Source: Ignavibacteriota bacterium (GTDB taxonomy: Bacteria; Bacteroidota; Ignavibacteria; UBA10030). From it: a stretch of 64,000 nucleotides of DNA. Below are positions 1 to 51,314 of this stretch, in pieces. Position 1 is the first letter of the stretch, and every line of letters begins with the position of its first letter. Made by a program: the position numbers and the translations under genes. The notes beneath the pieces were generated by a model. The model worked only from the letters and a program-made list of their open reading frames with translations, was not told the DNA's origin and made no database searches. The DNA is taken from NCBI GenBank assembly GCA_963701295.1, contig OY969585.1:480001-544000 (forward strand), written 5' to 3'.

Positions 1-318
1 ACAGCAAGAACCGACTGCGCGGTGGGAGAGCCATTCAGAGAGGCGGATATATGTATCAATACTTAATGAAGTTAATTCGACCCCTGTGACACATCTGTTA
101 ATCGACTCAAAGACTCATAGGCTCTTAGACTCGACTTGCATTTTCTTGCTTTTCAAACCAAAAAATACCACACTAAAAAGAGAAGCAACTCAAATGCATA
201 AACCAACGCATGTTGCTTCACATTCTTTTTTTCCCAAAAACGCTTGAAACATTCTGTGTTTTAAGAGTGAATTAGCAAAGTATTTTCACTACTTTTAAAA
301 TATAGATGAAGAATACTT

Positions 319-1806
319 ATGAATAAATTTGAATTCAGTAATAAAGTCGTTGAGAACATTCTGCAGGAGTTGCGGAGGGCAAGGAAATACATAAGAATTG
401 CTGTATTTCAAATTCACCAAGAAGATGTTTTTGCTCTTTTAATCGAAAAACTTAAGCAAGGCGTAAGAGTTGAAATCATCACTCTTCCTTACGATTCAAT
501 TAATCTTGATGTACAGTTAAATGTTACTGCACACTTTGAGAAACTTAAATCCAATGGAGCTCGATTACATTTTTGTGGATGGAACGTTGGTGATCCTGAA
601 AGAACATCAACCGCAATCGGAAGATGGTATTCATTCCACGGAAAATTCATCGTTACTGACAAATCAGCAATTTCACTTTCAGCAAATTTTACAACTAAGA
701 ACGAACTTGATTGCAGTCTGATTTCAAATGACGCGAAAATGATTTCGCATTACAACTTCAAATTTGATGAGTTGTATAATCTTTTCGTAAAAGAAACAGA
801 TGGTTATTCAGGTTCAATCCGAAAAAAGGTTTTAGAGGCGAATCCAAATGCAAGCGAACTTTTCAAGTTGCCAAAAGTCATTGAAACCAAAACACACGAA
901 AGGCATTGGATTCATCACTACCCTTCTTCTCTTTGTCCTCAATTAGTACCAGCGGAAGACGGACTATTCATTGTTCCGTTTGATATTCGCGGAAGAAGCT
1001 TTTATGAGGAGAAAATTAAGAGCGCTAAGAAATTTGTTTTCATTTCAACCGAAAGTTTTACAGATACAGATTTTGCAGATTTCCTGATTAAAACTTCTCT
1101 TAAAGATTTACAGATAAATATTCTCACAGGAGCAACGAGCATGGACTTTGCAGACAGAATGCAAGCCATGCTTCGTGATTTACTTGCAAATAATATCAAA
1201 GTAAAAACTATCAATGACGATTTGCATGGCAAACTTTTACTCACCGACAAACATCTTGTTATAAGTTCAATCAACTTGAATAAGATGAATCTTGGCTTTA
1301 ATAAGACTAGTCAATTTTGGAGAGAAAACACGGAAACAATTACTGTATGCTCCGATAAAGCAGTAATCGTCGAAGCTAAGAAACAGTTCTCTACAACCTT
1401 TAAGAAAGCAATAGATATTGAAGATATATTGGTAAAGAAATTATTATCAAAAGTTGGAAATGTTTTTTCAAAATACTACGGAATCAAATCAGACAAAGAA
1501 GCGAAGAACTTGTTTGCAAAGTTTCTTTTAAGGCAGGAAATTTATGTAAAGAAATTAGCGACAACAGTTGCTAAAATTAGTGGGAGAATTATTACAAAGT
1601 TGAAAAAGAAAAAAGTATGTAAGAATGAATTTATTATGTCGTTAATCCTATATTTCCTTACAGAAAGGAAATTATCAAAGAATGAGATAAAGGATAAAAT
1701 TGATGTGCTGGATACTACTTATGATTTATCCTCATTAATAAAAATTCTTGTAGCAGAAAAATTTATTGAAAAAGATGGCGATTATTATAAAATTAAGATA
1801 ACCTGA
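319..1806 (+). CDS. Tandem phospholipase D-family (two HKD motifs) putative nuclease with C-terminal winged-helix-like segment
   Basis: HxKxxxxD motifs FHGKFIVTD (followed by SANFT) and LHGKLLLTD (followed by SSINLN); immediately upstream of a DNA methyltransferase. Confidence 0.75.
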   Translation: MNKFEFSNKVVENILQELRRARKYIRIAVFQIHQEDVFALLIEKLKQGVRVEIITLPYDSINLDVQLNVTAHFEKLKSNGARLHFCGWNVGDPERTSTAIGRWYSFHGKFIVTDKSAISLSANFTTKNELDCSLISNDAKMISHYNFKFDELYNLFVKETDGYSGSIRKKVLEANPNASELFKLPKVIETKTHERHWIHHYPSSLCPQLVPAEDGLFIVPFDIRGRSFYEEKIKSAKKFVFISTESFTDTDFADFLIKTSLKDLQINILTGATSMDFADRMQAMLRDLLANNIKVKTINDDLHGKLLLTDKHLVISSINLNKMNLGFNKTSQFWRENTETITVCSDKAVIVEAKKQFSTTFKKAIDIEDILVKKLLSKVGNVFSKYYGIKSDKEAKNLFAKFLLRQEIYVKKLATTVAKISGRIITKLKKKKVCKNEFIMSLILYFLTERKLSKNEIKDKIDVLDTTYDLSSLIKILVAEKFIEKDGDYYKIKIT

Positions 1807-1818
1807 GAATAAATTTAA

Positions 1819-2703
1819 ATGAATAGTGAACTAATAAAAGGAAATTGTTTAGCGTTTCTAAAAGGCAAATTAGAGCGATATTTTGATTTGACATTTCTGG
1901 ACCCACCTTTTAATCAAGGTAAATATTATGAAGGGCATGACGACAATATGGATGCAAACGAATATTGGAAATGGATGAAAGAAATATGTTATCATATATT
2001 CCAACACACAGAAGAAGGTGGTTGCATCTATTTTATGCAACGAGAAAAAAACACTCAATATGTTTTAGATACATTATCGACAACTGGTTGGCATTTCCAG
2101 AATATCATTATTTGGAAAAAGAAATCTTCGGCTGTTCCTCAAAACAACAGGTTCGGGAAGCAATATCAAGTGATTGCCTTTGCGACAAAAGGAAATCCAC
2201 CCCGGGTATTTAACAAACTTAGAATTGACCCGCCGCTCTTGGTAACAGAAAAATATGCAAGGGAGAACGGAATGTATGTAACTGATGTTTGGGATGACAT
2301 CCGAGAATTAACCTCTGGTTACTTTGCAGGGGACGAACCATTAAGAGTTGAAGACGGTTCACGTCTCCATAAACAACAAGCACCAGTTCAATTATTGGCT
2401 AGAATAATTTTAAGTTCCTCTAAAGTTGGTGATTTAATCTTTGATCCGTTTGCAGGAACAGCAACTACTCTAGTTGTTGCAAAACAATTGTTGAGAAATT
2501 CAATTGGGATTGAATTGAATCCATTAAACATAGAGAGCGCAGAAAAAAGATTGTCTGAATTAAGGAACAGCGATAATATTTTAAAATTCCGCAACGATTA
2601 TCGATACACGGAAGGACTCGATGATATTTGGAGAGTAACCGACAAACCATCTATTCCATTGCCTGTTAAATCAAAAGATGGAACACTTGCATTTAAGTTT
2701 TAA
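1819..2703 (+). CDS. N6-adenine/N4-cytosine DNA methyltransferase, beta class
   Basis: Catalytic motif IV LDPPFN near the N-terminus; SAM-binding motif I DPFAGTATT near the C-terminus; IIIWKK and TDVWDD motifs. Confidence 0.93.
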   Translation: MNSELIKGNCLAFLKGKLERYFDLTFLDPPFNQGKYYEGHDDNMDANEYWKWMKEICYHIFQHTEEGGCIYFMQREKNTQYVLDTLSTTGWHFQNIIIWKKKSSAVPQNNRFGKQYQVIAFATKGNPPRVFNKLRIDPPLLVTEKYARENGMYVTDVWDDIRELTSGYFAGDEPLRVEDGSRLHKQQAPVQLLARIILSSSKVGDLIFDPFAGTATTLVVAKQLLRNSIGIELNPLNIESAEKRLSELRNSDNILKFRNDYRYTEGLDDIWRVTDKPSIPLPVKSKDGTLAFKF

Positions 2704-2807
2704 AGTCTCACACCTCTTAACCTCAGCGAGTTCGTCACCACACTCACGGAACTCAGCGCCATTGCCCCTGCAGCAAACATAGAGTTGAGTAAACCCATCG
2801 CCGCCAA
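2700..2807 (-). repeat. Copy of the copA 3' end (last 36 codons including stop)
   Basis: Matches 5863-5970 with 7 substitutions; reads [35 protein letters not shown]. Confidence 0.95.
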
Positions 2808-2825
2808 CTAAGGGAGCTCAAAAAA

Positions 2826-4010
2826 CTACATGATTAAAGATCTCTCCATTGCATCTCCAACTTTTCTGGAAGAGCCGGCGCGAAGCTCATTTATAATTCC
2901 GGGTATTATATCTGTTACAGTATTCACTTCTTCTTCTGTTGTGTAACGGCTCAATGAAAACCGTATCGATCCGTGAATAGCATCATCCGGCACTCCCATT
3001 GCCCGCAAAACATGACTCGGCTCGGAAGAACCTGATGAACATGCCGATCCGGCTGAAGCGCAAATGCCGTATGTATCAAGTCGATGTAAAAGAGCCTCGC
3101 TGTCAACATGAGAAAAACTTATACTTGACGTATTCGCCAAACGCTCTGAATCACAGCCATTGATAAATATGCCTGAACATGTACTCTTCAACTTTAATTC
3201 TAAAAGGTCCCTGAGCCCGGCAACACCCGTCTGTTCGCATGCAATATTTTCCAGGGCAAGCTCGCATGCTTTTCCGAGGGCAGCAATCGATGCCAGGTTC
3301 TCGGTGCCGGCTCTCTTTCCGCATTCCTGATGGCCGCCTAATAAATAGGGAAAAAACTTGCAGCCTTTTCTTACATACAGTACACCGATACCTTTCGGCG
3401 CATGCAGTTTGTGGCCCGACATTGAGAGCATATCCACACCAAGCTTTTTCACATCTATTGGGACCTTCCCGACAGCCTGAACCGCATCGGTATGAAAGAG
3501 TATTCCGCGTTCACGGCACATCGCACCAATTTCTGCGATCGGAAAAATTACACCGGTCTCATTGTTCGCATACATGATTGAAACTATTACAGGTTCGTCA
3601 TCAATTGCATTCATGAATGCATCGATATCAAGCCTTCCCGCTCTATCGACCGGCAAATAGGTGGCTTTATATCCTTTCTGTTCCAAATGCTTTACAAGAT
3701 TAAGAACTGCAGGATGTTCTACTTGAGATGTGATTATATGCCGTTTATTTTCACCTAACTGAATCGCGCTTGAAATCGCTGTATTATCACTTTCCGTTCC
3801 GCAGCTTGTAAAAATTATTTCCTCCGGCTCTGCGCCTATCAGTAATGCGACATTTTCTCTGGCCTGCTCTATTTTGTAATAAAGATTTCTGCCAAAGGAA
3901 TGACTGCTCGAAGGATTGCCGTATGATTCTTTTAAGTAAGGGAGCATTTCGTTCAAAACCTCGGGCGAAATAGCAGTAGTAGCGTTATTGTCCAGATATA
4001 TGGTTTTCAT
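2826..4010 (-). CDS. nifS: Group I cysteine desulfurase (NifS/IscS type)
   Basis: YLDNNATT, HTDAVQ, PLP-lysine motif SGHKLHAPKG, catalytic SAGSACSSGS. Confidence 0.92.
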   Translation of the reverse strand: MKTIYLDNNATTAISPEVLNEMLPYLKESYGNPSSSHSFGRNLYYKIEQARENVALLIGAEPEEIIFTSCGTESDNTAISSAIQLGENKRHIITSQVEHPAVLNLVKHLEQKGYKATYLPVDRAGRLDIDAFMNAIDDEPVIVSIMYANNETGVIFPIAEIGAMCRERGILFHTDAVQAVGKVPIDVKKLGVDMLSMSGHKLHAPKGIGVLYVRKGCKFFPYLLGGHQECGKRAGTENLASIAALGKACELALENIACEQTGVAGLRDLLELKLKSTCSGIFINGCDSERLANTSSISFSHVDSEALLHRLDTYGICASAGSACSSGSSEPSHVLRAMGVPDDAIHGSIRFSLSRYTTEEEVNTVTDIIPGIINELRAGSSRKVGDAMERSLIM

Positions 4011-4029
4011 TTTTTCTCTCTTTGAGTTT

Positions 4030-4464
4030 TCATGAACATCTTACATTTTCTTTCTGAAGAATCTCATATAATATGCCGGCCGCCTCGGCGGTTAATTTTT
4101 TGCAATCCAGTTTGATTTTCTGTTTCTCCATCAAATCCAGAATTTTTTGACAATTTGTGGAACTAAAATTTTTTAAAAACTGATTCCTGAATTCAGCTGA
4201 CAATGAATACACCTTTTGTTTATCATCACTTGGATCCTCCCGTCCAAACAAGCAGCCCAGGGCTATAATGCCGCCGGTCAAAGCTCCGCAGGTCTCGCAA
4301 TGGGATCTGCCGATTCCCCCGCCAAAACCGGAGGCAAATTTTGTAATACCTGGATCCGGTTCTTTATTATACAATTCCACAAACGATTTTAGAATTGCCT
4401 CAGCACAGTTGAATCCTGAGTGGAGAAACGTAAAGGTCTTCTGTTCAATATCTACCTTTGTCAT
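4030..4464 (-). CDS. C-GCAxxG-C-C family putative redox protein
   Basis: FNCAEA, GFGGGIG, TCGALTGG and two downstream Cys residues. Confidence 0.88.
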   Translation of the reverse strand: MTKVDIEQKTFTFLHSGFNCAEAILKSFVELYNKEPDPGITKFASGFGGGIGRSHCETCGALTGGIIALGCLFGREDPSDDKQKVYSLSAEFRNQFLKNFSSTNCQKILDLMEKQKIKLDCKKLTAEAAGILYEILQKENVRCS

Positions 4465-4580
4465 GATTTTTCTCCTTAAATTATTGCGTATTTAGAAAGT
4501 TGAATTTTTACGATTATAAGTCTATATTTATATTAATCAATCGGAAACGTTGTGTCAATAGTCCAATATTGATACTGTAA

Positions 4581-4595
4581 ATCGGATAAATCGAT
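4581..4595. promoter_or_regulatory. Putative LysR binding box
   Basis: ATCG-N7-CGAT dyad (contains T-N11-A) in the divergent intergenic region. Confidence 0.45.
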
Positions 4596-4616
4596 AGATA
4601 AAGGGCTATTAAAATT

Positions 4617-5519
4617 TTGGATATAAAGCAATTATTCACTTTTAGAACAATAGCAGCGCTTGGCAGTTTCAACAAGGCCGCAGATGCGCTTAACTATGCA
4701 CAATCGACGGTATCCGAGCAAATCAAAGCGCTTGAAGGAGAATTGAGTGTAAAGCTATTCAATAGAGATGGAAAATATATATCGCTCACTCCGGCGGGTG
4801 AACTTTTTCTACAATACGCTCAAAAGATGATAAACCTTGAAGAAGAGATTCGAACGGAAATAAAAGGAAGCGAAGAAGTTCATGGTTCTTTATCAATTAG
4901 AATTCCAGAAACCATCAGTACCTATTACCTGCCTCCGGTTTTAAAAATATTTAAGAGCCGTTTTCCCCATGTTGATTTTCATTTTAATTCCTGCTCTTCT
5001 TATGGGTTACATGAAGAATTGCGTTCCGGAATAATTAATCTCGCATTTTTGATAACCAAGGACTTCCGGGATGTTGATTTAGAAACACATACTTTAATGG
5101 AAGTTCCGTTAATGATGGTTACATACCCGAAAAATCCAATTGCAGCAAAATCCATTGTGCAGCTAACCGATATAAAAAATGAACCCATATTTGTGACGTC
5201 CAGTGATTGCAGCTATTTCAAAATATTGGAAGAACTTTTTATCAATAAGAAAATCAAGATGTCAACATTATACCGTATCAACAGCATTGAAGCAATAAAG
5301 CAAAATATTGCTGCAGGTACCGGAATCGCCCTTCTTTCAAAGATAGCCGTGCATGAAGAAATATCGAAAGGTTCACTTGTTGAATTGCCTTTGGAAAAAG
5401 GACCTTCGAGCGCCAACATGCTCATGATCCGCTTAAAAAATAAATGGCATCCGCCTATTTTGGAAGCATTTATGGAAATAATGAAAGAAACTTTATCCCT
5501 ACAGCTTCACCCCTCGTAG
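4617..5519 (+). CDS. LysR family transcriptional regulator
   Basis: HTH motif GSFNKAADALNYAQSTVSEQIKALE, LTPAGE, substrate-binding domain; the last codons overlap the antisense copA repeat. Confidence 0.93.
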   Translation: MDIKQLFTFRTIAALGSFNKAADALNYAQSTVSEQIKALEGELSVKLFNRDGKYISLTPAGELFLQYAQKMINLEEEIRTEIKGSEEVHGSLSIRIPETISTYYLPPVLKIFKSRFPHVDFHFNSCSSYGLHEELRSGIINLAFLITKDFRDVDLETHTLMEVPLMMVTYPKNPIAAKSIVQLTDIKNEPIFVTSSDCSYFKILEELFINKKIKMSTLYRINSIEAIKQNIAAGTGIALLSKIAVHEEISKGSLVELPLEKGPSSANMLMIRLKNKWHPPILEAFMEIMKETLSLQLHPS

Positions 5520-5592
5520 CCTCAGCGAATTCGTTACTACACTTACAGAACTCAACGCCATTGCTCCTGCGGCAAACATCGGGTTAAGTAAA
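5499..5592 (-). repeat. Second copy of the copA 3' end (31 codons including stop)
   Basis: 11 substitutions versus copA, all synonymous; encodes [30 protein letters not shown]. Confidence 0.95.
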
Positions 5593-5862
5593 ATTCTTTT
5601 ACTTGCGCCTGCGAAATCGATAGAAGTATACTGGGCTAAGGCGCGAGAGTACTTATTATATCCGATTGATACGTTCTAAACATATTACTCATTGTATCCT
5701 GAATCCGAACTCCACCTTGAGATAACACATTTCGATTTCGCATGCGTTTCTTTCTGCTGCTTTCTTTTCGCCAAAAGAAAGCAGCATTAAGCACAATTCA
5801 CATATCAGTTTTAAGTTACATGTTTCCTGGATTCCCGCCTTCGCAGAAGAGAAAGTAACACC

Positions 5863-8121
5863 CTACAGTTTCACCCCTCGTAACCTCAGCGAGTTCGTCA
5901 CCACACTCACGGAACTCAGCGCCATTGCCCCTGCAGCAAACATCGGGTTGAGTAAACCCATCGCCGCCAAGGGAATGCCGATACTATTATAGACAAATGC
6001 CCAGAAAAGATTCTGCTTGATCGTGCGCATTGTCTGTCGGGAAAGCCGGATTGCCCGGAGAACTCCTCTGAGATCGGATTTCATCAAGGTAATATCCGCC
6101 GTTTCCATGGCTATATCCGTGCCGGTTCCTACGGCAATGCCTACATCTGCCTGCGCCAGCGAAGGCGCATCATTCATCCCGTCGCCCACCATTGCCACGA
6201 TCTTCCCCGCCGACTGAAGTTCTTTTATTTTCGCGGCTTTATCCTGTGGCAAAATTTCCGCAAACACTTTTTCGATACCGGCTTGTGCGGCAATTGCGCG
6301 CGCTGTGCGGGAGTTATCGCCCGTGAGCAGAACGAGTTCGAATCCCATTTCTTTCAATTCCGCTGCCGCTTTTTCCGATGCAGGATGAAGCGTATCCGCA
6401 ACGGCAATGATACCGAGAAGTTTGCCATCGGCGGCAACTAAAATTGACGTTTTGCCTTGCTCCGAGAATCGGAGGATTGCGCTCGATGCAATCGCGGTAT
6501 CGATGGATGCATCCCGCATCATCTTCTCGCTCCCCACCGCCGCCTTTCTGCCGATCACAGTTCCCTCGACTCCAAATCCCGTGAGAGAGCGGAAGGAATC
6601 CGTTTCAACCAACACAAGAGAACGATTTGTTGCTTCCCGCACAATGGCTGTACCCAGCGGATGCTCGGATTTTTTTTCCAGCGAAGCCGCCAAACGCAGG
6701 ACTATCTGTTCATCGATACCATCAAAGCCTTGAATGTCCGTTACGGAAGGCGTGCCGGAAGTGATAGTACCGGTCTTATCAAACACAATCGTATTTATTT
6801 TATGCGCCCGCTCTAGACTTTCGGCATTTTTGATCAGCACACCGAGCGTCGCACCTCTGCCGGTACCGACCATAATCGCCGTGGGGGTTGCAAGTCCGAG
6901 TGTGCACGGGCACGCAATAACAAGAACCGCAATGGCATTCATCAAAGCTGATGCAAGACCAATTCCAAGAACGATATACCAAACGCAAAACGCCGCGAGA
7001 GCAATCACCATTACAACAGGCACAAAGACAGAAGCAATTTTGTCGGCAAGATGCTGAATGGGAGCTTTGGAGCCCTGCGCTTCTTCGACAAGCTTTGCAA
7101 TGTGCGCAACAACCGTATCCGCGCCGACAGCAGAGGCACGGAATTCAAAACTTCCGTTTCGGTTAATCGTACCGCCGATTACCTTATCGCCGATGCTTTT
7201 TTCAACGGGAATACTTTCGCCGCTCACCATCGACTCATCGACGGAAGAAGAACCTTTGAGGATCAAGCCGTCGACCGGAATGCGTTCGCCGGGCCGCATG
7301 ATTAAGACATCACCGACAGTAACATACGCAATCGGAATTTCAAACTCTGTATAGTCTTTCATGATCCGTGCAGTCTTCGGCTGAAGTCCCAATAATAGTT
7401 TTATGGAATCGGATGCCTTGTGTTTTGCGCGGGCTTCGAGCATCCTTCCCATCAAAATGAGCGTAATAATGACAGCCGCTGAATCGAAATAGACATTATA
7501 GAGATTCGTGCCCGCTGGAAACCATTGCGGGAAAAGCACAACAGCGGCGCTGCAGAGAAATGCCGCTCCGGTGCCGACAGCAACCAGGGTATTCATATCC
7601 GCCGCAAAATGTTTTGCCAGTTTCCATGCAGGTTTGAAAAAACGTTTTCCGGAAATAAACATCACCGGTATCGTGAGAATAAGCAAAAGTCTATTGACTT
7701 CATCCATCGATAAAAGAACGAGGGTCATAAACCACACGGTCATGCTCAGCATATTGATCAGCACGATGGGAACGGTAAATATGAGGCTGAGGAAAAATTC
7801 ACTCTTGAGCTGGCGGTAGGATTTTTCTTGATGAGAATCTTCCGAAGACTGCCCTCGTACTTGACTAAGAGAATCTTCGGAAGATTTCCGAGGCAGGACT
7901 AATTGATATCCTGCACCATCAACAGCTTTTGCGAGTTCTTCGAGAGACGTTTTTTCCGGATCGAATGAGAGCGCAACTGCTTCCGTTGCAAGATTGACAC
8001 TGGCGGTTTCAACGCCGTCGATTTTCTTCAGTGTTTTTTCGACCCGTGCAACACAGCTTGCGCACGTCATTCCTTCCACGGGCAGCGTCAATGTTTCTAT
8101 ATGATGAGCAGGCTCATTCAT
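5863..8121 (-). CDS. copA: Copper-translocating P1B-type ATPase
   Basis: GMTCASC metal-binding domain, CPC motif, DKTGT phosphorylation site, SEHP, GDGxND, YN and MxxSS Cu(I) motifs. Confidence 0.96.
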
Positions 8122-8411: not shown

Positions 8412-8439
8412 GTAGTGGCGATTCATGAATCGCCACTAC
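8412..8439. repeat. GTAG-type REP palindrome
   Basis: Perfect 28-bp palindrome GTAGTGGCGATTCATGAATCGCCACTAC. Confidence 0.9.
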
Positions 8440-8487
8440 AATTTAAAAACGGCACCGGATATTTTCAACATTTCCCGGCAATAAACC

Positions 8488-9057
8488 TTATATCTTTCCC
8501 TTCAACGGATTTTCATTATCATATAACCATTTCACCGGATTATTCATAATATAATCCCGGATGTTGTTTAGATCTTTATCGCTGCGGATGATGTGCTCGT
8601 GATAATTGCGTTGCCATACGGAATTTCCCGATGTATTCCGGAAAAGATTTATTCCTTTTGCCGAAGTCATCTTGAACCGTCCGATGATTTTGGATAATGT
8701 CATTTTCCTTCGCTGTTGTTGTGTCGTTGGTAGGGGCGATTCATGAATCGCCCCTACAGGTTCGGTTAAAGCAATGATGCCATGGATATGATTCGGCATT
8801 ATGACAAATCCGTCTAATTCCACATTCTGATAATACGCTGATATCTCCTCCCAACATTTCTTTACTATTTCTCCTTCCGGAGATAATCGCATCATCTCTT
8901 CCTCAATTTCACCGAAAATACATCCATGATTATGTGTACATATCGTGACAAAATATTCTCCAGGAGATGAATAATCATACTCTTTTAACCGAATAGAACG
9001 GCGCTTGTATCTGTTGATACTGTCCAACGATTGACGTACCGGTAGTAATTCTTTCAT
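8488..9057 (-). mobile_element. REP-associated tyrosine (Y1/HUH) transposase, RAYT
   Basis: RRSIRL..YDYS..G.YFVTICT, HUH motif MPNHIHGII, WQRNYHEHIIR, YIMNNP; REP palindromes inside and downstream. Confidence 0.92.
8730..8757. repeat. GTAG-type REP palindrome inside the RAYT coding sequence
   Basis: Perfect palindrome GTAGGGGCGATTCATGAATCGCCCCTAC, translated in frame as VGAIHESPL. Confidence 0.9.
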
Positions 9058-49283: not shown

Positions 49284-50363
49284 ATGGCTTCCTTGATTAA
49301 ACGTTCTAACGGTATCTACTATTTCATTACTCAATTCAATGGTGTGCGTCGTTGGATTAGTACGGGTGAGAAAACTCGTGAGAAAGCTCTCAAGAGAATC
49401 CCTTCCCTCAGCTTCGAACACAGACACAAAAACAAAATTCCCAATCTTTCTGACTACATAGAGCAATTTCTCAGCATCGGATGCAATAGCTATCGAGAAG
49501 GAACGAAAGAAATTTATGAAAGAGCAATGTATTCCTTTCTCGATTGCGTGGGTAATAAAAAGCTCTCTCTCATTAGCATAAAAGATATTGATAAGTACAG
49601 ACAAGCAAAGCTTCAAATTATTCTCCCTACTACTATGAATATTTATCTTCGAACTCTCAAATCCGCATTTAATAAAGCAGTTCAATGGGAGCTCTTGCAG
49701 CATAATCCTTTTTCAAGACTACCACTCTGTCCTGTTCCTCAACGAGCTCCACAGTTCTTCACTCTCGATCATTTTAAAGCATTGACAAAAACGATCAAGG
49801 AACCATGGCTGTTGCAGGCCATCCATCTTGCAGTCTTTACCGGAATGCGAAGATCCGAGATAGTAAATTTGCAATGGAAGCATATTGATTTTTCAAGGGA
49901 GTTAATTATTGTCGAATCGGATGCAAATTTTCAAACAAAGACCGGAAAACGACGGCTTCTTCCGATGAACTCTATAGTATTTCAAATGCTACGGTCTATG
50001 TTTATCACAAGAACAGGAGAATATGTCATTATGTTGAATGGAAAGAAGTTGCGAGACATTTGGCTTTCAAGGAGATTTAAACAATACATCTGCAAAATGA
50101 ATATTGACATTTCCATGCATTTTCACATTCTTCGTCACACTTTCGGCAGTTGGCTAGCACAGGCCGGAGTGCCTATATACGAAATACAAGCACTTATGGG
50201 TCATTCAAACATAAGGGTTACAATGTCGTATAGCCACTTAATACCGAAACAATTGAGAGCGAGCGTTGAGATGCTTGTACCGTTTGATCAATTAATTCAT
50301 AACGGACAACCCTGCGAGGACATTGATCCTCGCAAGACTTCTTCGCAAGCCATCGTTTTCTAG
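49284..50363 (+). CDS. Tyrosine recombinase/integrase 1
   Basis: TGMRRSE, KTG, HILRH, MGHS, catalytic Y (MSYSH). Confidence 0.95.
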   Translation: MASLIKRSNGIYYFITQFNGVRRWISTGEKTREKALKRIPSLSFEHRHKNKIPNLSDYIEQFLSIGCNSYREGTKEIYERAMYSFLDCVGNKKLSLISIKDIDKYRQAKLQIILPTTMNIYLRTLKSAFNKAVQWELLQHNPFSRLPLCPVPQRAPQFFTLDHFKALTKTIKEPWLLQAIHLAVFTGMRRSEIVNLQWKHIDFSRELIIVESDANFQTKTGKRRLLPMNSIVFQMLRSMFITRTGEYVIMLNGKKLRDIWLSRRFKQYICKMNIDISMHFHILRHTFGSWLAQAGVPIYEIQALMGHSNIRVTMSYSHLIPKQLRASVEMLVPFDQLIHNGQPCEDIDPRKTSSQAIVF

Positions 50364-51314
50364 GTGGCAATAGATTTCGGTAGTGCTCAAATTTTTATGG
50401 CCCAGTAGCTTTTGAACTTCATAGATGGGGGTTTGTGCTTGTGTAAGCCAAGAAGCACAGGTATCTCTGAGATTATGAAAATGATAATGTTCTGACAAAC
50501 CACTTTTGTGGACATATTGTTTAAAAACTCTTGTGATATAATGAGGTTTCAGTGCTTTTTCCTCTTTATTGACAAACACATATCCCTCTGTTTTCCTCAG
50601 CGTAAGTAGCATTTTTTTGATAAATGGATGCATCGGTATTGTTCGGGGATGCATACCTTTTACACGAAACGTACCTCTATTACGTATTCGGATCAGAGAA
50701 TTTTGAAAATCTAGATCTTCCCACATTAAATTACAAATTTCACCTCTTCTCATACCTTCATGAACTGCGATTATAATAATATTTCGGAATTGAATATCAT
50801 TTACGCTATCCAATAATGTTTTAAAGTCTGTTTTTGTAAAATATGTTGGCTCCTTATCAGGGACTGGTATTTCCTTGCAGCGCTGGGCGGGATTATCTGA
50901 TACTAATCTCCAGTTCACTCCCAAATTAAATGCTGCCTGAATAGTGCGAAGATAAATATTAACTGTCACAGGCTTCACATCTGCTAAACATTTTTGTTTA
51001 AACTTTTCGATTAACAAGGGCGTCACTCCAATTAACGCTATATCTCCCAGGGCATGGATTAATTTATCAAAGCTCCGTTGATAGATCGATAGAGTACCAG
51101 AAGATAAATTTGTCGATACATATTGACAGACCAATTTTTGAAAGGCACTTAAGGTCATAAGTTTTGGTCTTTCAAGACTACTCGAGATAGTTTCGGCGAT
51201 TCTTTTGGCTTCTTCTTGATCCCGGGAACGTGTAGAACGCCATCTACGATTTCCTTCAAAATCGTAAAATGCAATATAAAAGATCCCATTATTCCGTTTA
51301 AAGAGAGAAGCCAT
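50292..51314 (-). CDS. Tyrosine recombinase/integrase 2
   Basis: GMRRGE, VKG, HNLR, LGHK, catalytic Y (EIYCH). Confidence 0.95.
   Translation of the reverse strand: MASLFKRNNGIFYIAFYDFEGNRRWRSTRSRDQEEAKRIAETISSSLERPKLMTLSAFQKLVCQYVSTNLSSGTLSIYQRSFDKLIHALGDIALIGVTPLLIEKFKQKCLADVKPVTVNIYLRTIQAAFNLGVNWRLVSDNPAQRCKEIPVPDKEPTYFTKTDFKTLLDSVNDIQFRNIIIIAVHEGMRRGEICNLMWEDLDFQNSLIRIRNRGTFRVKGMHPRTIPMHPFIKKMLLTLRKTEGYVFVNKEEKALKPHYITRVFKQYVHKSGLSEHYHFHNLRDTCASWLTQAQTPIYEVQKLLGHKNLSTTEIYCHLENDGLRRSLARINVLAGLSVMN

What the first reader, a model, noticed from the sequence alone, without database searches (positions are those of the whole stretch)
2700..5970. Cassette array anchored on repeated copies of the copA 3' end
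Seen: the last ~100 bp of copA occur three times in direct orientation (5863-5970, 5499-5592, 2700-2807), each ending at a stop codon and each followed by different DNA: a 270-bp spacer, then LysR/redox/nifS, then methyltransferase/PLD. Copy 2 has 11 changes in 31 codons, all synonymous, so it probably evolved as a functional copA end in a relative. Both extra copies overlap the 3' end of a convergent gene. No recombinase lies in the cassettes, and the copies begin at different codons. Inference: iterative gene capture at a protein-coding 3' end with terminus replacement, by a trans-acting recombinase or homology-anchored recombination. The repeats would also allow excision, and read-through could produce antisense RNA to copA.
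Basis: partly seen in the sequence, partly recalled or inferred. Interest (0 to 1): 0.8.

Follow-up and report, generated by a model that had tools for sequence, protein, structure and literature searches.

The report
Gene cassettes stacked behind copA ends
Behind the copper-pump gene copA of an uncultured Ignavibacteria-type genus, different accessory genes are stacked in rows separated by partial copies of copA's last codons with no integrase nearby, likely because incoming DNA recombines into copA and pushes the old gene end downstream, which would be a visible footprint of how bacteria gain genes without mobile elements.

Summary
In detail: three direct copies of the copA 3' end. Copy 2 differs by 11 synonymous and 0 nonsynonymous changes. 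The array is genus-wide: 12 of 16 genomes carry displaced copA ends among different cargo genes. One genome has an empty site. No orphan copies were found in 70 genomes of other genera. No integrase, recombinase or reverse transcriptase was found among 162 ORFs. Copy edges run from -37 to -307, so there is no fixed att site. The same footprint occurs at unrelated genes of this genome: 3' ends are copied downstream 12 times against once upstream. The best reading is recombinase-free, homology-anchored capture with terminus displacement, then shuffling between copies. It works like Rhs/T6SS displacement arrays, but the anchor is a housekeeping gene and the cargo is arbitrary. The mechanism is inferred. 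The convergent, lagging-strand bias of cargo is unexplained. This scan noted similar arrays before at rnj, rumA, metG and guaA in other taxa (unchecked here).

The parts
5863..8121 (-). intact copA, P1B-type heavy-metal ATPase (752 aa); anchor gene, on the leading strand
   Evidence: GC skew
5863..5970 (-). functional copA 3' end (reference copy 1)
5593..5862 (.). mini-cassette: 270-bp non-coding spacer
   Evidence: 203 bp of it present at 100% in run X1
5598..5786 (-). about 190-bp dispersed hairpin repeat (7 hits in G000, also in the array regions of 7 genomes); its tail abuts copy 2; no Rfam match
5499..5592 (-). displaced copA end, copy 2 (from about -96 to the stop); foreign-type allele, 11 synonymous and 0 nonsynonymous changes
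4617..5519 (+). LysR regulator, convergent to copA; its last codons and stop are read from the antisense strand of copy 2; same junction in G004
4030..4464 (-). C_GCAxxG_C_C putative redox protein (cargo)
2826..4010 (-). NifS-like class V aminotransferase (cargo)
2807..2823 (-). 17-bp stretch matching a decayed copA fragment (about -62 to -46) seen in G006 at 16 of 17 bases; possibly a relic of an older copy at the nifS junction (inferred)
2700..2807 (-). displaced copA end, copy 3 (from about -109); shares this genome's own alleles up to about -19, last 18 nt of another allele type
   Evidence: groups with G000 copA, support 93/78
1819..2703 (+). N6/N4 DNA methyltransferase, convergent; stop overlaps the stop of copy 3; 36% GC
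   Evidence: junction bridged in run X2
319..1806 (+). PLD-domain protein, candidate restriction partner of the MTase (role inferred, not tested); 33% GC

Best explanation
The locus is a genus-wide stack of accessory cassettes separated by partial copA 3' ends, likely built without a dedicated recombinase: DNA from a relative carrying a copA end plus cargo would recombine into copA by homology, and its free end would join the resident copA some 40-300 bp before the stop. The incoming end completes the gene and the resident end is pushed downstream as a relic. This can happen through a linear homology-facilitated illegitimate event or through a trimmed, re-circularised fragment and one crossover. 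The relics, and small repeats that invade them, then likely serve as homology for duplicating and shuffling cassettes. Shown: the architecture, variable content, variable edges, absence of recombinase genes, shared decayed variants, and the same polarity at other genes. Inferred: the DNA-entry route, RecA dependence and the order of events. Not explained: how new cargo first becomes attached just behind the stop, and why it is mostly convergent.
For: (1) Displaced ends occur in 12 of 16 genus genomes: 30 stop-reaching copies in 11 genomes, one of them at a contig edge and possibly an intact gene, plus a fragment in G014. The distance from copA to a conserved distal gene runs from 2.0 kb (G002, empty) to 25.6 kb in the 9 genomes where both lie on one contig. 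(2) 5' homology edges range from -37 to -307; 3' divergence points range from about -12 to +100. (3) No integrase, recombinase or RT family among 162 ORFs; one Y1 transposase. No tblastn hit in 307 kb with 9 queries: 8 tyrosine recombinases of the genome and one IS transposase. (4) The PAP2/DAGK cassette follows intact copA in G010 and displaced copies in G006, G009 and G011. (5) Genome-wide polarity over 2719 ORFs: 3' ends copied downstream 12 vs upstream 1; 5' ends upstream 7 vs downstream 1; mid-gene 3 vs 2 (after dropping queries with more than 6 genome hits; 16 vs 3 and 10 vs 1 before). (6) At a sensor kinase, 3 of 5 relatives examined are empty and G000 has 2.4 kb between 36-bp duplicates. 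At a PolB-exonuclease-like gene the displaced 198 bp is nearer than the functional end to 5 of 7 relatives. (7) 11 of 11 synonymous changes are improbable for a local duplicate decaying neutrally, P about 7e-5 to 3e-4. (8) Decayed variants are shared between copies with different neighbours (G011 pair, G008 pair, a variant shared by G004, G008 and G010), and a 142-bp unit is tandemly repeated in L068. (9) Precedent: in E. coli conjugation with one homologous end, 56 of 60 clones gave the PCR product diagnostic of a partial duplication, 109-950 bp in 14 sequenced (PMC3240628, section 12). (10) ComEC and DprA families are present (weak, since they also ring in 10 and 11 of 14 control genomes).
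Against: Classic HFIR usually deletes recipient DNA rather than duplicating it (PMC3240628 introduction passage). Exact microhomology was clear at only 1 of 5 junctions with a candidate parent: 7-8 bp with two of three copA alleles tried, 1 bp with the third; the other four gave 0-2 bp. Displaced copies are not generally host-like: the host's own allele ranks on average about 6th of 13 over 24 copies. Intact ends track gene-body distances, so between-species replacement is not frequent. At the kinase and H+-pyrophosphatase loci the functional end, not the copy, is nearer to most relatives. Copy edges are often eroded by repeats, so the number of independent junctions is smaller than the number of copies. 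The model does not predict the orientation bias (34 of 40 first ORFs, 29 of 43 cargo families convergent), nor why copA is used so much more than other genes. Only 8 candidate gene-end copies were inspected by alignment, and at least two are partial paralogue duplications.
Confidence: 0.65

Rival explanations
1. A REP-associated Y1 (HUH) transposase makes the free ends or strand transfers: it cuts at small palindromes and joins single-stranded DNA near the copA stop, duplicating the end, with larger cargo carried between palindromes.
For: Many 5' edges abut GTAG-type palindromes or other small repeats, and several mini-cassettes consist only of such repeats. In L068 a repeat with inverted ends begins at the stop codon and recurs with copA -68..0. 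The best Y1 match in G000 lies about 370 bp upstream of copA, and another sits between two copies in G008. G002 and G007, with no displaced copy, have the fewest Y1 matches, one each (two genomes only).
Against: Y1 genes are scattered and were not found beside copA in the other regions fetched. Many junctions join cargo directly to copA with no repeat (-307, -195, -119, -106, -103). One repeat-to-copy junction near -71 recurs in several genomes and looks inherited rather than remade.
Confidence: 0.13
2. A site-specific tyrosine or serine recombinase acting in trans, or lost from each element, integrates cassettes at an attB in the copA tail, as e14 does in icd.
For: The product geometry is the same as icd/icdC (PMC13626634 passages). 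Sequence similarity persists about 20 nt past the stop. G000 has 14 Phage_integrase matches.
Against: No fixed 5' or 3' edge. No integrase or relic in 307 kb. Unrelated genes show the same footprint. No viral contig carried either of two patterns, and the four phage-record matches were 74-80% identical and from Listeria and Enterococcus phages.
Confidence: 0.1
3. Local tandem duplications of the copA end, or of copA itself, decayed and were later filled by unrelated insertions.
For: Copy 3 is host-like. Many copies in relatives carry nonsynonymous decay. Short tandem units exist (G006, G008, L068).
Against: Copy 2's changes are all synonymous. The locus is not invariant. No copy extends beyond -307. 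Cassettes shared between species occupy different array positions.
Confidence: 0.08
4. The copies are attC-like sites used by the genome's integron integrase.
For: The genome has an IntI-like gene and many attC-like arrays. Cargo genes are biased to one orientation, with their 3' ends near the repeat.
Against: Three attC-like queries gave no hit in the array regions. The IntI-like gene is about 0.56 Mb away on a circular map. There is no fixed crossover, and cassettes include divergent gene pairs.
Confidence: 0.03
5. Assembly artefact.
For: No raw reads spanning the whole array were available.
Against: The copies differ by 6-12%. The junctions recur in G004 and in an independent run, and arrays occur in 11 other genomes.
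Confidence: 0.01

Closest known systems
Rhs C-terminal displacement arrays (Jackson et al. 2009, PMC2935791; passages read)
   Same: An intact gene followed by direct, partial 3' core copies of varying length; incumbent end shunted downstream; no integrase known to co-occur; circle-plus-crossover model proposed.
   Different: In Rhs the exchanged tip is the selected, variable part. Here the CopA tip is nearly invariant and the payload is unrelated genes behind the stop.
Vibrio cholerae T6SS immunity-gene arrays by sequential displacement (Kirchberger et al. 2017, PMC5361080; passages read)
   Same: Stepwise addition at the front of an array by proposed homology-facilitated illegitimate recombination, then spread by homologous recombination.
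   Different: Those arrays hold effector-immunity modules under competition. Here the anchor is a metal-efflux gene and the cargo is functionally mixed.
HFIR and degraded-recircularised single crossover (Amarir-Bouhram et al. 2011, PMC3240628; passages and section 12 read; author name recalled)
   Same: One homologous end; variable-length partial duplication of the anchor (109-950 bp) without a recombinase.
   Different: A laboratory event at about 1e-9 per recipient. True HFIR gave deletions, and no natural arrays are described in the parts read.
MGE-free hotspots and minimal mobile elements (Oliveira et al. 2017, PMC5635113; PMC3787668; passages read)
   Same: Variable gene content between conserved core genes, no mobility genes.
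   Different: Their mechanism is double crossover at the flanks, which replaces content and leaves no duplicated gene end. Here content accumulates and leaves relic ends.
Integrase-mediated insertion into a coding 3' end (e14 in icd with the icdC relic; PMC13626634 passages) and tandem genomic islands (recalled)
   Same: Gene restored by an incoming end, old end displaced as a pseudogene fragment.
   Different: Those elements encode an integrase and use a fixed core (recalled). Neither is found here.
Integrons and CALINs (features recalled)
   Same: Tandem small cassettes, orientation bias, stress, redox and defence-type cargo.
   Different: No attC, no neighbouring IntI, no fixed crossover; the delimiters are coding sequence.

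Membership tests
Integron / CALIN | attC sites delimit cassettes | tested here: not met
   no hit with three genome-derived attC-like queries in the array regions
Integron / CALIN | fixed crossover base at the cassette boundary | tested here: not met
   edges vary on both sides
Integrase-mediated island at a coding 3' end (e14/icdC type) | integrase gene in or beside the element | tested here: not met
   none among 162 ORFs, no tblastn relic in 307 kb
Integrase-mediated island at a coding 3' end (e14/icdC type) | constant att core start | tested here: not met
   5' edges from -37 to -307; some edges are eroded by repeats, but direct junctions also differ
Integrase-mediated island at a coding 3' end (e14/icdC type) | target gene restored, relic end downstream | tested here: met
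Rhs/T6SS displacement array | direct partial copies of varying length downstream of an intact gene | tested here: met
Rhs/T6SS displacement array | non-homologous toxic tips with immunity genes | tested here: not met
   the CopA C-terminus is conserved and the cargo families are unrelated enzymes, regulators and transporters
Rhs/T6SS displacement array | episomal circular intermediate | not testable with these tools
   only contigs were available
HFIR product | 3-10 bp microhomology at the illegitimate joint | tested here: inconclusive
   1 of 5 joints with 7-8 bp, four with 0-2 bp; parents are diverged
HFIR product | deletion of recipient DNA next to the anchor | tested here: not met
   duplication is seen; at the kinase locus relatives continue directly into the flank kept in G000
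HFIR product | RecA dependence and DNA uptake | not testable with these tools
   ComEC and DprA families present only
MGE-free hotspot / minimal mobile element | variable gene content between conserved flanking genes, no mobility genes | tested here: met
   2.0-25.6 kb between copA and a conserved distal gene
MGE-free hotspot / minimal mobile element | elevated homologous recombination in the flanking core gene | tested here: inconclusive
   the copA end tracks body distances between species; no within-species genomes were available
Diversity-generating retroelement | reverse transcriptase and adenine-specific differences between repeats | tested here: not met
   no RT family in the regions; differences fall at third positions of all base types
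REP/RAYT-mobilised repeats | Y1 transposase with GTAG palindromes acting at the junctions | tested here: inconclusive
   Y1 gene and palindromes are present; only some junctions abut repeats

The most novel reading that the evidence does not exclude
A general, enzyme-free integron analogue: a conserved housekeeping gene end acts as a self-renewing landing pad, and its relics become a population-wide pool of homology-targeted cassettes. A strand-biased single-stranded step, possibly a REP-associated HUH nuclease, attaches new genes tail-to-tail behind the stop. This would be an undescribed route by which MGE-free hotspots gain genes.
Probability: 0.25. Interest if true: 0.8.

Novelty: new variant of a known kind. 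Interest (0 to 1): 0.58.

Why it matters
Many gene-transfer hotspots lack integrases, and double crossover at the flanks explains swapping but not how new genes are added (PMC5635113 and PMC5361080 passages). Here each addition leaves a datable relic of the anchor gene, so order, donor type and junction can be read from sequence. The genome-wide polarity (3' ends copied downstream, 5' ends upstream) gives a simple signature that can be searched in any genome. It also means that a duplicated gene end is not by itself evidence of a lost integrase.

Tried and rejected
More copies left of the window: none in the whole genome. tRNA-anchored island: only tRNA-Ala and tRNA-Ile in 40 kb to the left. 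attC, DGR and fixed-att readings were rejected (see membership). A tree of 24 ends was almost unresolved: 18 of 21 inner branches open, none starred, bootstrap not settled. Between-species incongruence of the copA end was not found. Promoter and terminator scans of 1-6300 gave 24 vs 15.5 +/- 4.0 promoter-like sites and 8 vs 5.5 +/- 2.1 terminator-like sites; no promoter-like site lay in a copy, and folds around 8 stops showed no shared terminator. Rfam gave no match in the spacer. Helper elements: none in viral contigs with two patterns; phage matches were irrelevant. Distant copA loci: of 80, 60 had a full gene and at least 3 kb downstream; 2 gave a hit (a 275-bp 65% match and a 22-bp match), neither a terminal copy of this kind. 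Sequencing runs: two small-share DNA holders, no RNA holder listed, so antisense transcription and excised circles remain untested. Literature: searches returned no paper; the listings showed none describing integrase-free arrays at housekeeping gene ends. The library lacks most subscription papers, and no supplements were read. bioRxiv 10.64898/2026.01.13.699239 (abstract and outline) concerns oriT-bearing islands and was not pursued.
Full report
Observation. The window is G000:C1:480001-544000 of a single-contig 3.64-Mb genome. The nearest titled relative (85% CopA identity) is labelled an uncultured Ignavibacteriaceae bacterium. The copA end occurs three times in direct orientation and nowhere else in the genome. 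If copy 2 were a local duplicate decaying neutrally, 11 of 11 synonymous differences would have P about 7e-5, or 3e-4 with transitions weighted fourfold. It therefore likely evolved as a working end in another lineage. Copy 3 shares this genome's alleles: 3 synonymous and 2 nonsynonymous codon differences, against 9 and 2 for the next nearest allele. The spacer is mostly a dispersed hairpin repeat of about 190 bp.

Relatives. A DNA search of 61 genomes found matches in 13 of 15 other members of the genus, 10 of them with 2-6 matches, but at most one match in each of the 45 genomes of other genera. I fetched and oriented the copA regions of 14 relatives. They hold 30 stop-reaching displaced ends in 11 genomes including G000, plus fragments. 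One of the 30 (G015:C11) is at a contig edge and may be an intact gene, and G008's copies lie on a contig without copA. G014 has a fragment only. G002 has an empty site, G007 shows no copy, G013's contig ends 2.1 kb after the stop, and copA was not found in G003. The span to a conserved distal gene is 2.0-25.6 kb in nine genomes. A C-terminal protein query over 86 family genomes showed no nearby orphan copy in the 70 outside the genus, nor did 60 distant copA loci. Six metagenome contigs matched a copA-end pattern; one is identical to G010, and others add further arrangements, including a tandem 142-bp unit of repeat plus copA -68..0.

Anatomy. Cassettes are 0.17-7.6 kb stop to stop, with one 17-kb gap. 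Cargo includes PAP2/DAGK/phosphatase, SPFH, aldo-keto reductase, RND efflux, XRE-peptidase and LysR/redox/NifS modules. The same cassette occupies different positions in different species and stays attached to the copA end in front of it. 5' edges span -37 to -307. Some are cut by small repeats, but several join cargo directly at different positions. Similarity after the stop fades over about 20 nt, and pairwise divergence points range from about -12 to +100. No integrase, recombinase or RT family was found among 162 ORFs of at least 100 aa, and no relic by tblastn in 307 kb; one Y1 transposase lies between two copies in G008. The genome's attC-like repeats do not match the arrays. Decayed variants are shared between copies with different neighbours, which implies recombination among relics. 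First genes are convergent in 34 of 40 ends with an ORF (not independent), and 29 of 43 copy-bounded families are convergent (P 0.016 against 0.5; 1e-6 against the genome's 31% lagging-strand share). copA is on the leading strand by GC skew, so the cargo is mostly head-on to replication. I cannot explain this.

Not only copA. A scan of 2719 ORFs found 3' ends copied downstream for 12 genes and upstream for 1, 5' ends upstream for 7 and downstream for 1, and little polarity for mid-gene pieces (queries with more than 6 genome hits dropped). I aligned 8 candidates; at least two are partial paralogue duplications, such as emrA-emrB-tolC'|'emrA-emrB-tolC. Three were compared with relatives. The sensor kinase has a 2.4-kb insert between 36-bp duplicates and is empty in 3 of 5 relatives. 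At the PolB-exonuclease-like gene the displaced 198 bp (25 synonymous, 9 nonsynonymous codon changes) is nearer than the functional end to 5 of 7 relatives, which fits terminus replacement. At the kinase and the H+-pyrophosphatase the functional end is the nearer one, which does not. These targets are unrelated genes, so one site-specific enzyme is unlikely to serve them all.

Mechanism. The best fit is homology-anchored capture without a dedicated recombinase, followed by homologous shuffling (0.65). For this window the simplest inferred history has three steps. A host copA was first followed by the MTase/PLD pair. A foreign end with LysR/redox/nifS then displaced the host end (copy 3). A host-type end with the 270-bp spacer finally displaced the foreign end (copy 2). 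Neither copy is mosaic upstream of about -19, which suits a crossover upstream in copA better than a crossover inside a short circle, though repair or later allele replacement could mask mosaics. Against the model: microhomology is clear at 1 of 5 joints; copies are not generally host-like (mean rank about 6 of 13); intact ends follow gene-body distances; and classic HFIR deletes rather than duplicates. A trimmed, re-circularised fragment gives variable partial duplications in E. coli (PMC3240628 section 12), so both routes remain open. A Y1/REP-assisted step (0.13), a trans-acting integrase (0.10), local duplication and decay (0.08), IntI (0.03) and artefact (0.01) are the rivals.

Comparison and verdict. 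It works like Rhs and T6SS displacement arrays, and it is an instance of an MGE-free hotspot. It fails defining tests for integrons, integrase islands, DGRs and polymorphic-toxin arrays. My searches listed no paper describing such arrays at housekeeping gene ends; coverage is limited to open-licence papers. Earlier notes of this scan report the same pattern at rnj, rumA, metG, guaA and CPR genes. I did not check them, and they are not counted as support. Verdict: real, genus-wide, a new variant of a known kind; interest 0.58.

Noticed in passing
window 8412-9057: Y1 (IS200-like) transposase ORF 8488-9057 with GTAG-type palindromes at 8412-8439 and 8730-8757; the only PF01797 match in G000, though two weaker relatives appear by protein search.
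   Followed up: partly
window 49284-51314: Two convergent phage-integrase-family ORFs (359 and 340 aa) overlapping at their 3' ends, about 43 kb from the copA stop; no relic of them in the arrays.
   Followed up: partly
G000:C1:3566706-3567665; clusters such as 2.46-2.50 Mb: IntI-like gene and many attC-like clusters across the genome; two copies of the 190-bp spacer repeat lie just after the IntI-like gene.
   Followed up: partly
L070 (G000:C1:51652-55503): Sensor kinase 3' end duplicated (36 bp) around a convergent S41 peptidase plus XRE cassette; empty in G004, G009 and G010, other inserts in G002 and G006.
   Followed up: yes
L072 (G000:C1:3250431-3256689): Two facing genes (PolB-exonuclease-like and AlbA_2) each have a displaced 3' end copy within the same 6-kb interval.
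   Followed up: partly
L071 (G000:C1:1496484-1501066); L085: H+-pyrophosphatase end duplicated around a TPR gene; G002 has its own displaced copy of this end about 2.4 kb downstream.
   Followed up: partly
G000:C1:1462206-1468006: Efflux operon with two diverged emrB-like genes joined through a tolC-like 5' stub fused to an emrA-like 3' stub (gene names inferred from sequence, not from a family search); no exact microhomology at the joint.
   Followed up: partly
L073 (G000:C1:834615-836513): MerR-family 3' end recurs after a citrate synthase gene.
   Followed up: no
G008:C15 (L050, L060): A run of copA-end copies and the PAP2 cassette on a contig without copA, next to other metabolic genes; translocation or bin contamination (4%).
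   Followed up: no
G005:C84 (L046): A second, divergent LysR/redox/NifS module in the opposite orientation between copA-end fragments.
   Followed up: no
copies at window 2701-2807, G009:C4 and G012:C3: The conserved Pro codon of the LNPM motif reads Ser-type in several displaced copies; recurrent mutation or shared descent is unresolved.
   Followed up: no
run X2 contigs on window 5863-5969: A contig jumps back 107 bp from 5969 to 5863, consistent with a relative carrying two copA ends with an edge near that of copy 3 (single contig, depth 4.8).
   Followed up: no
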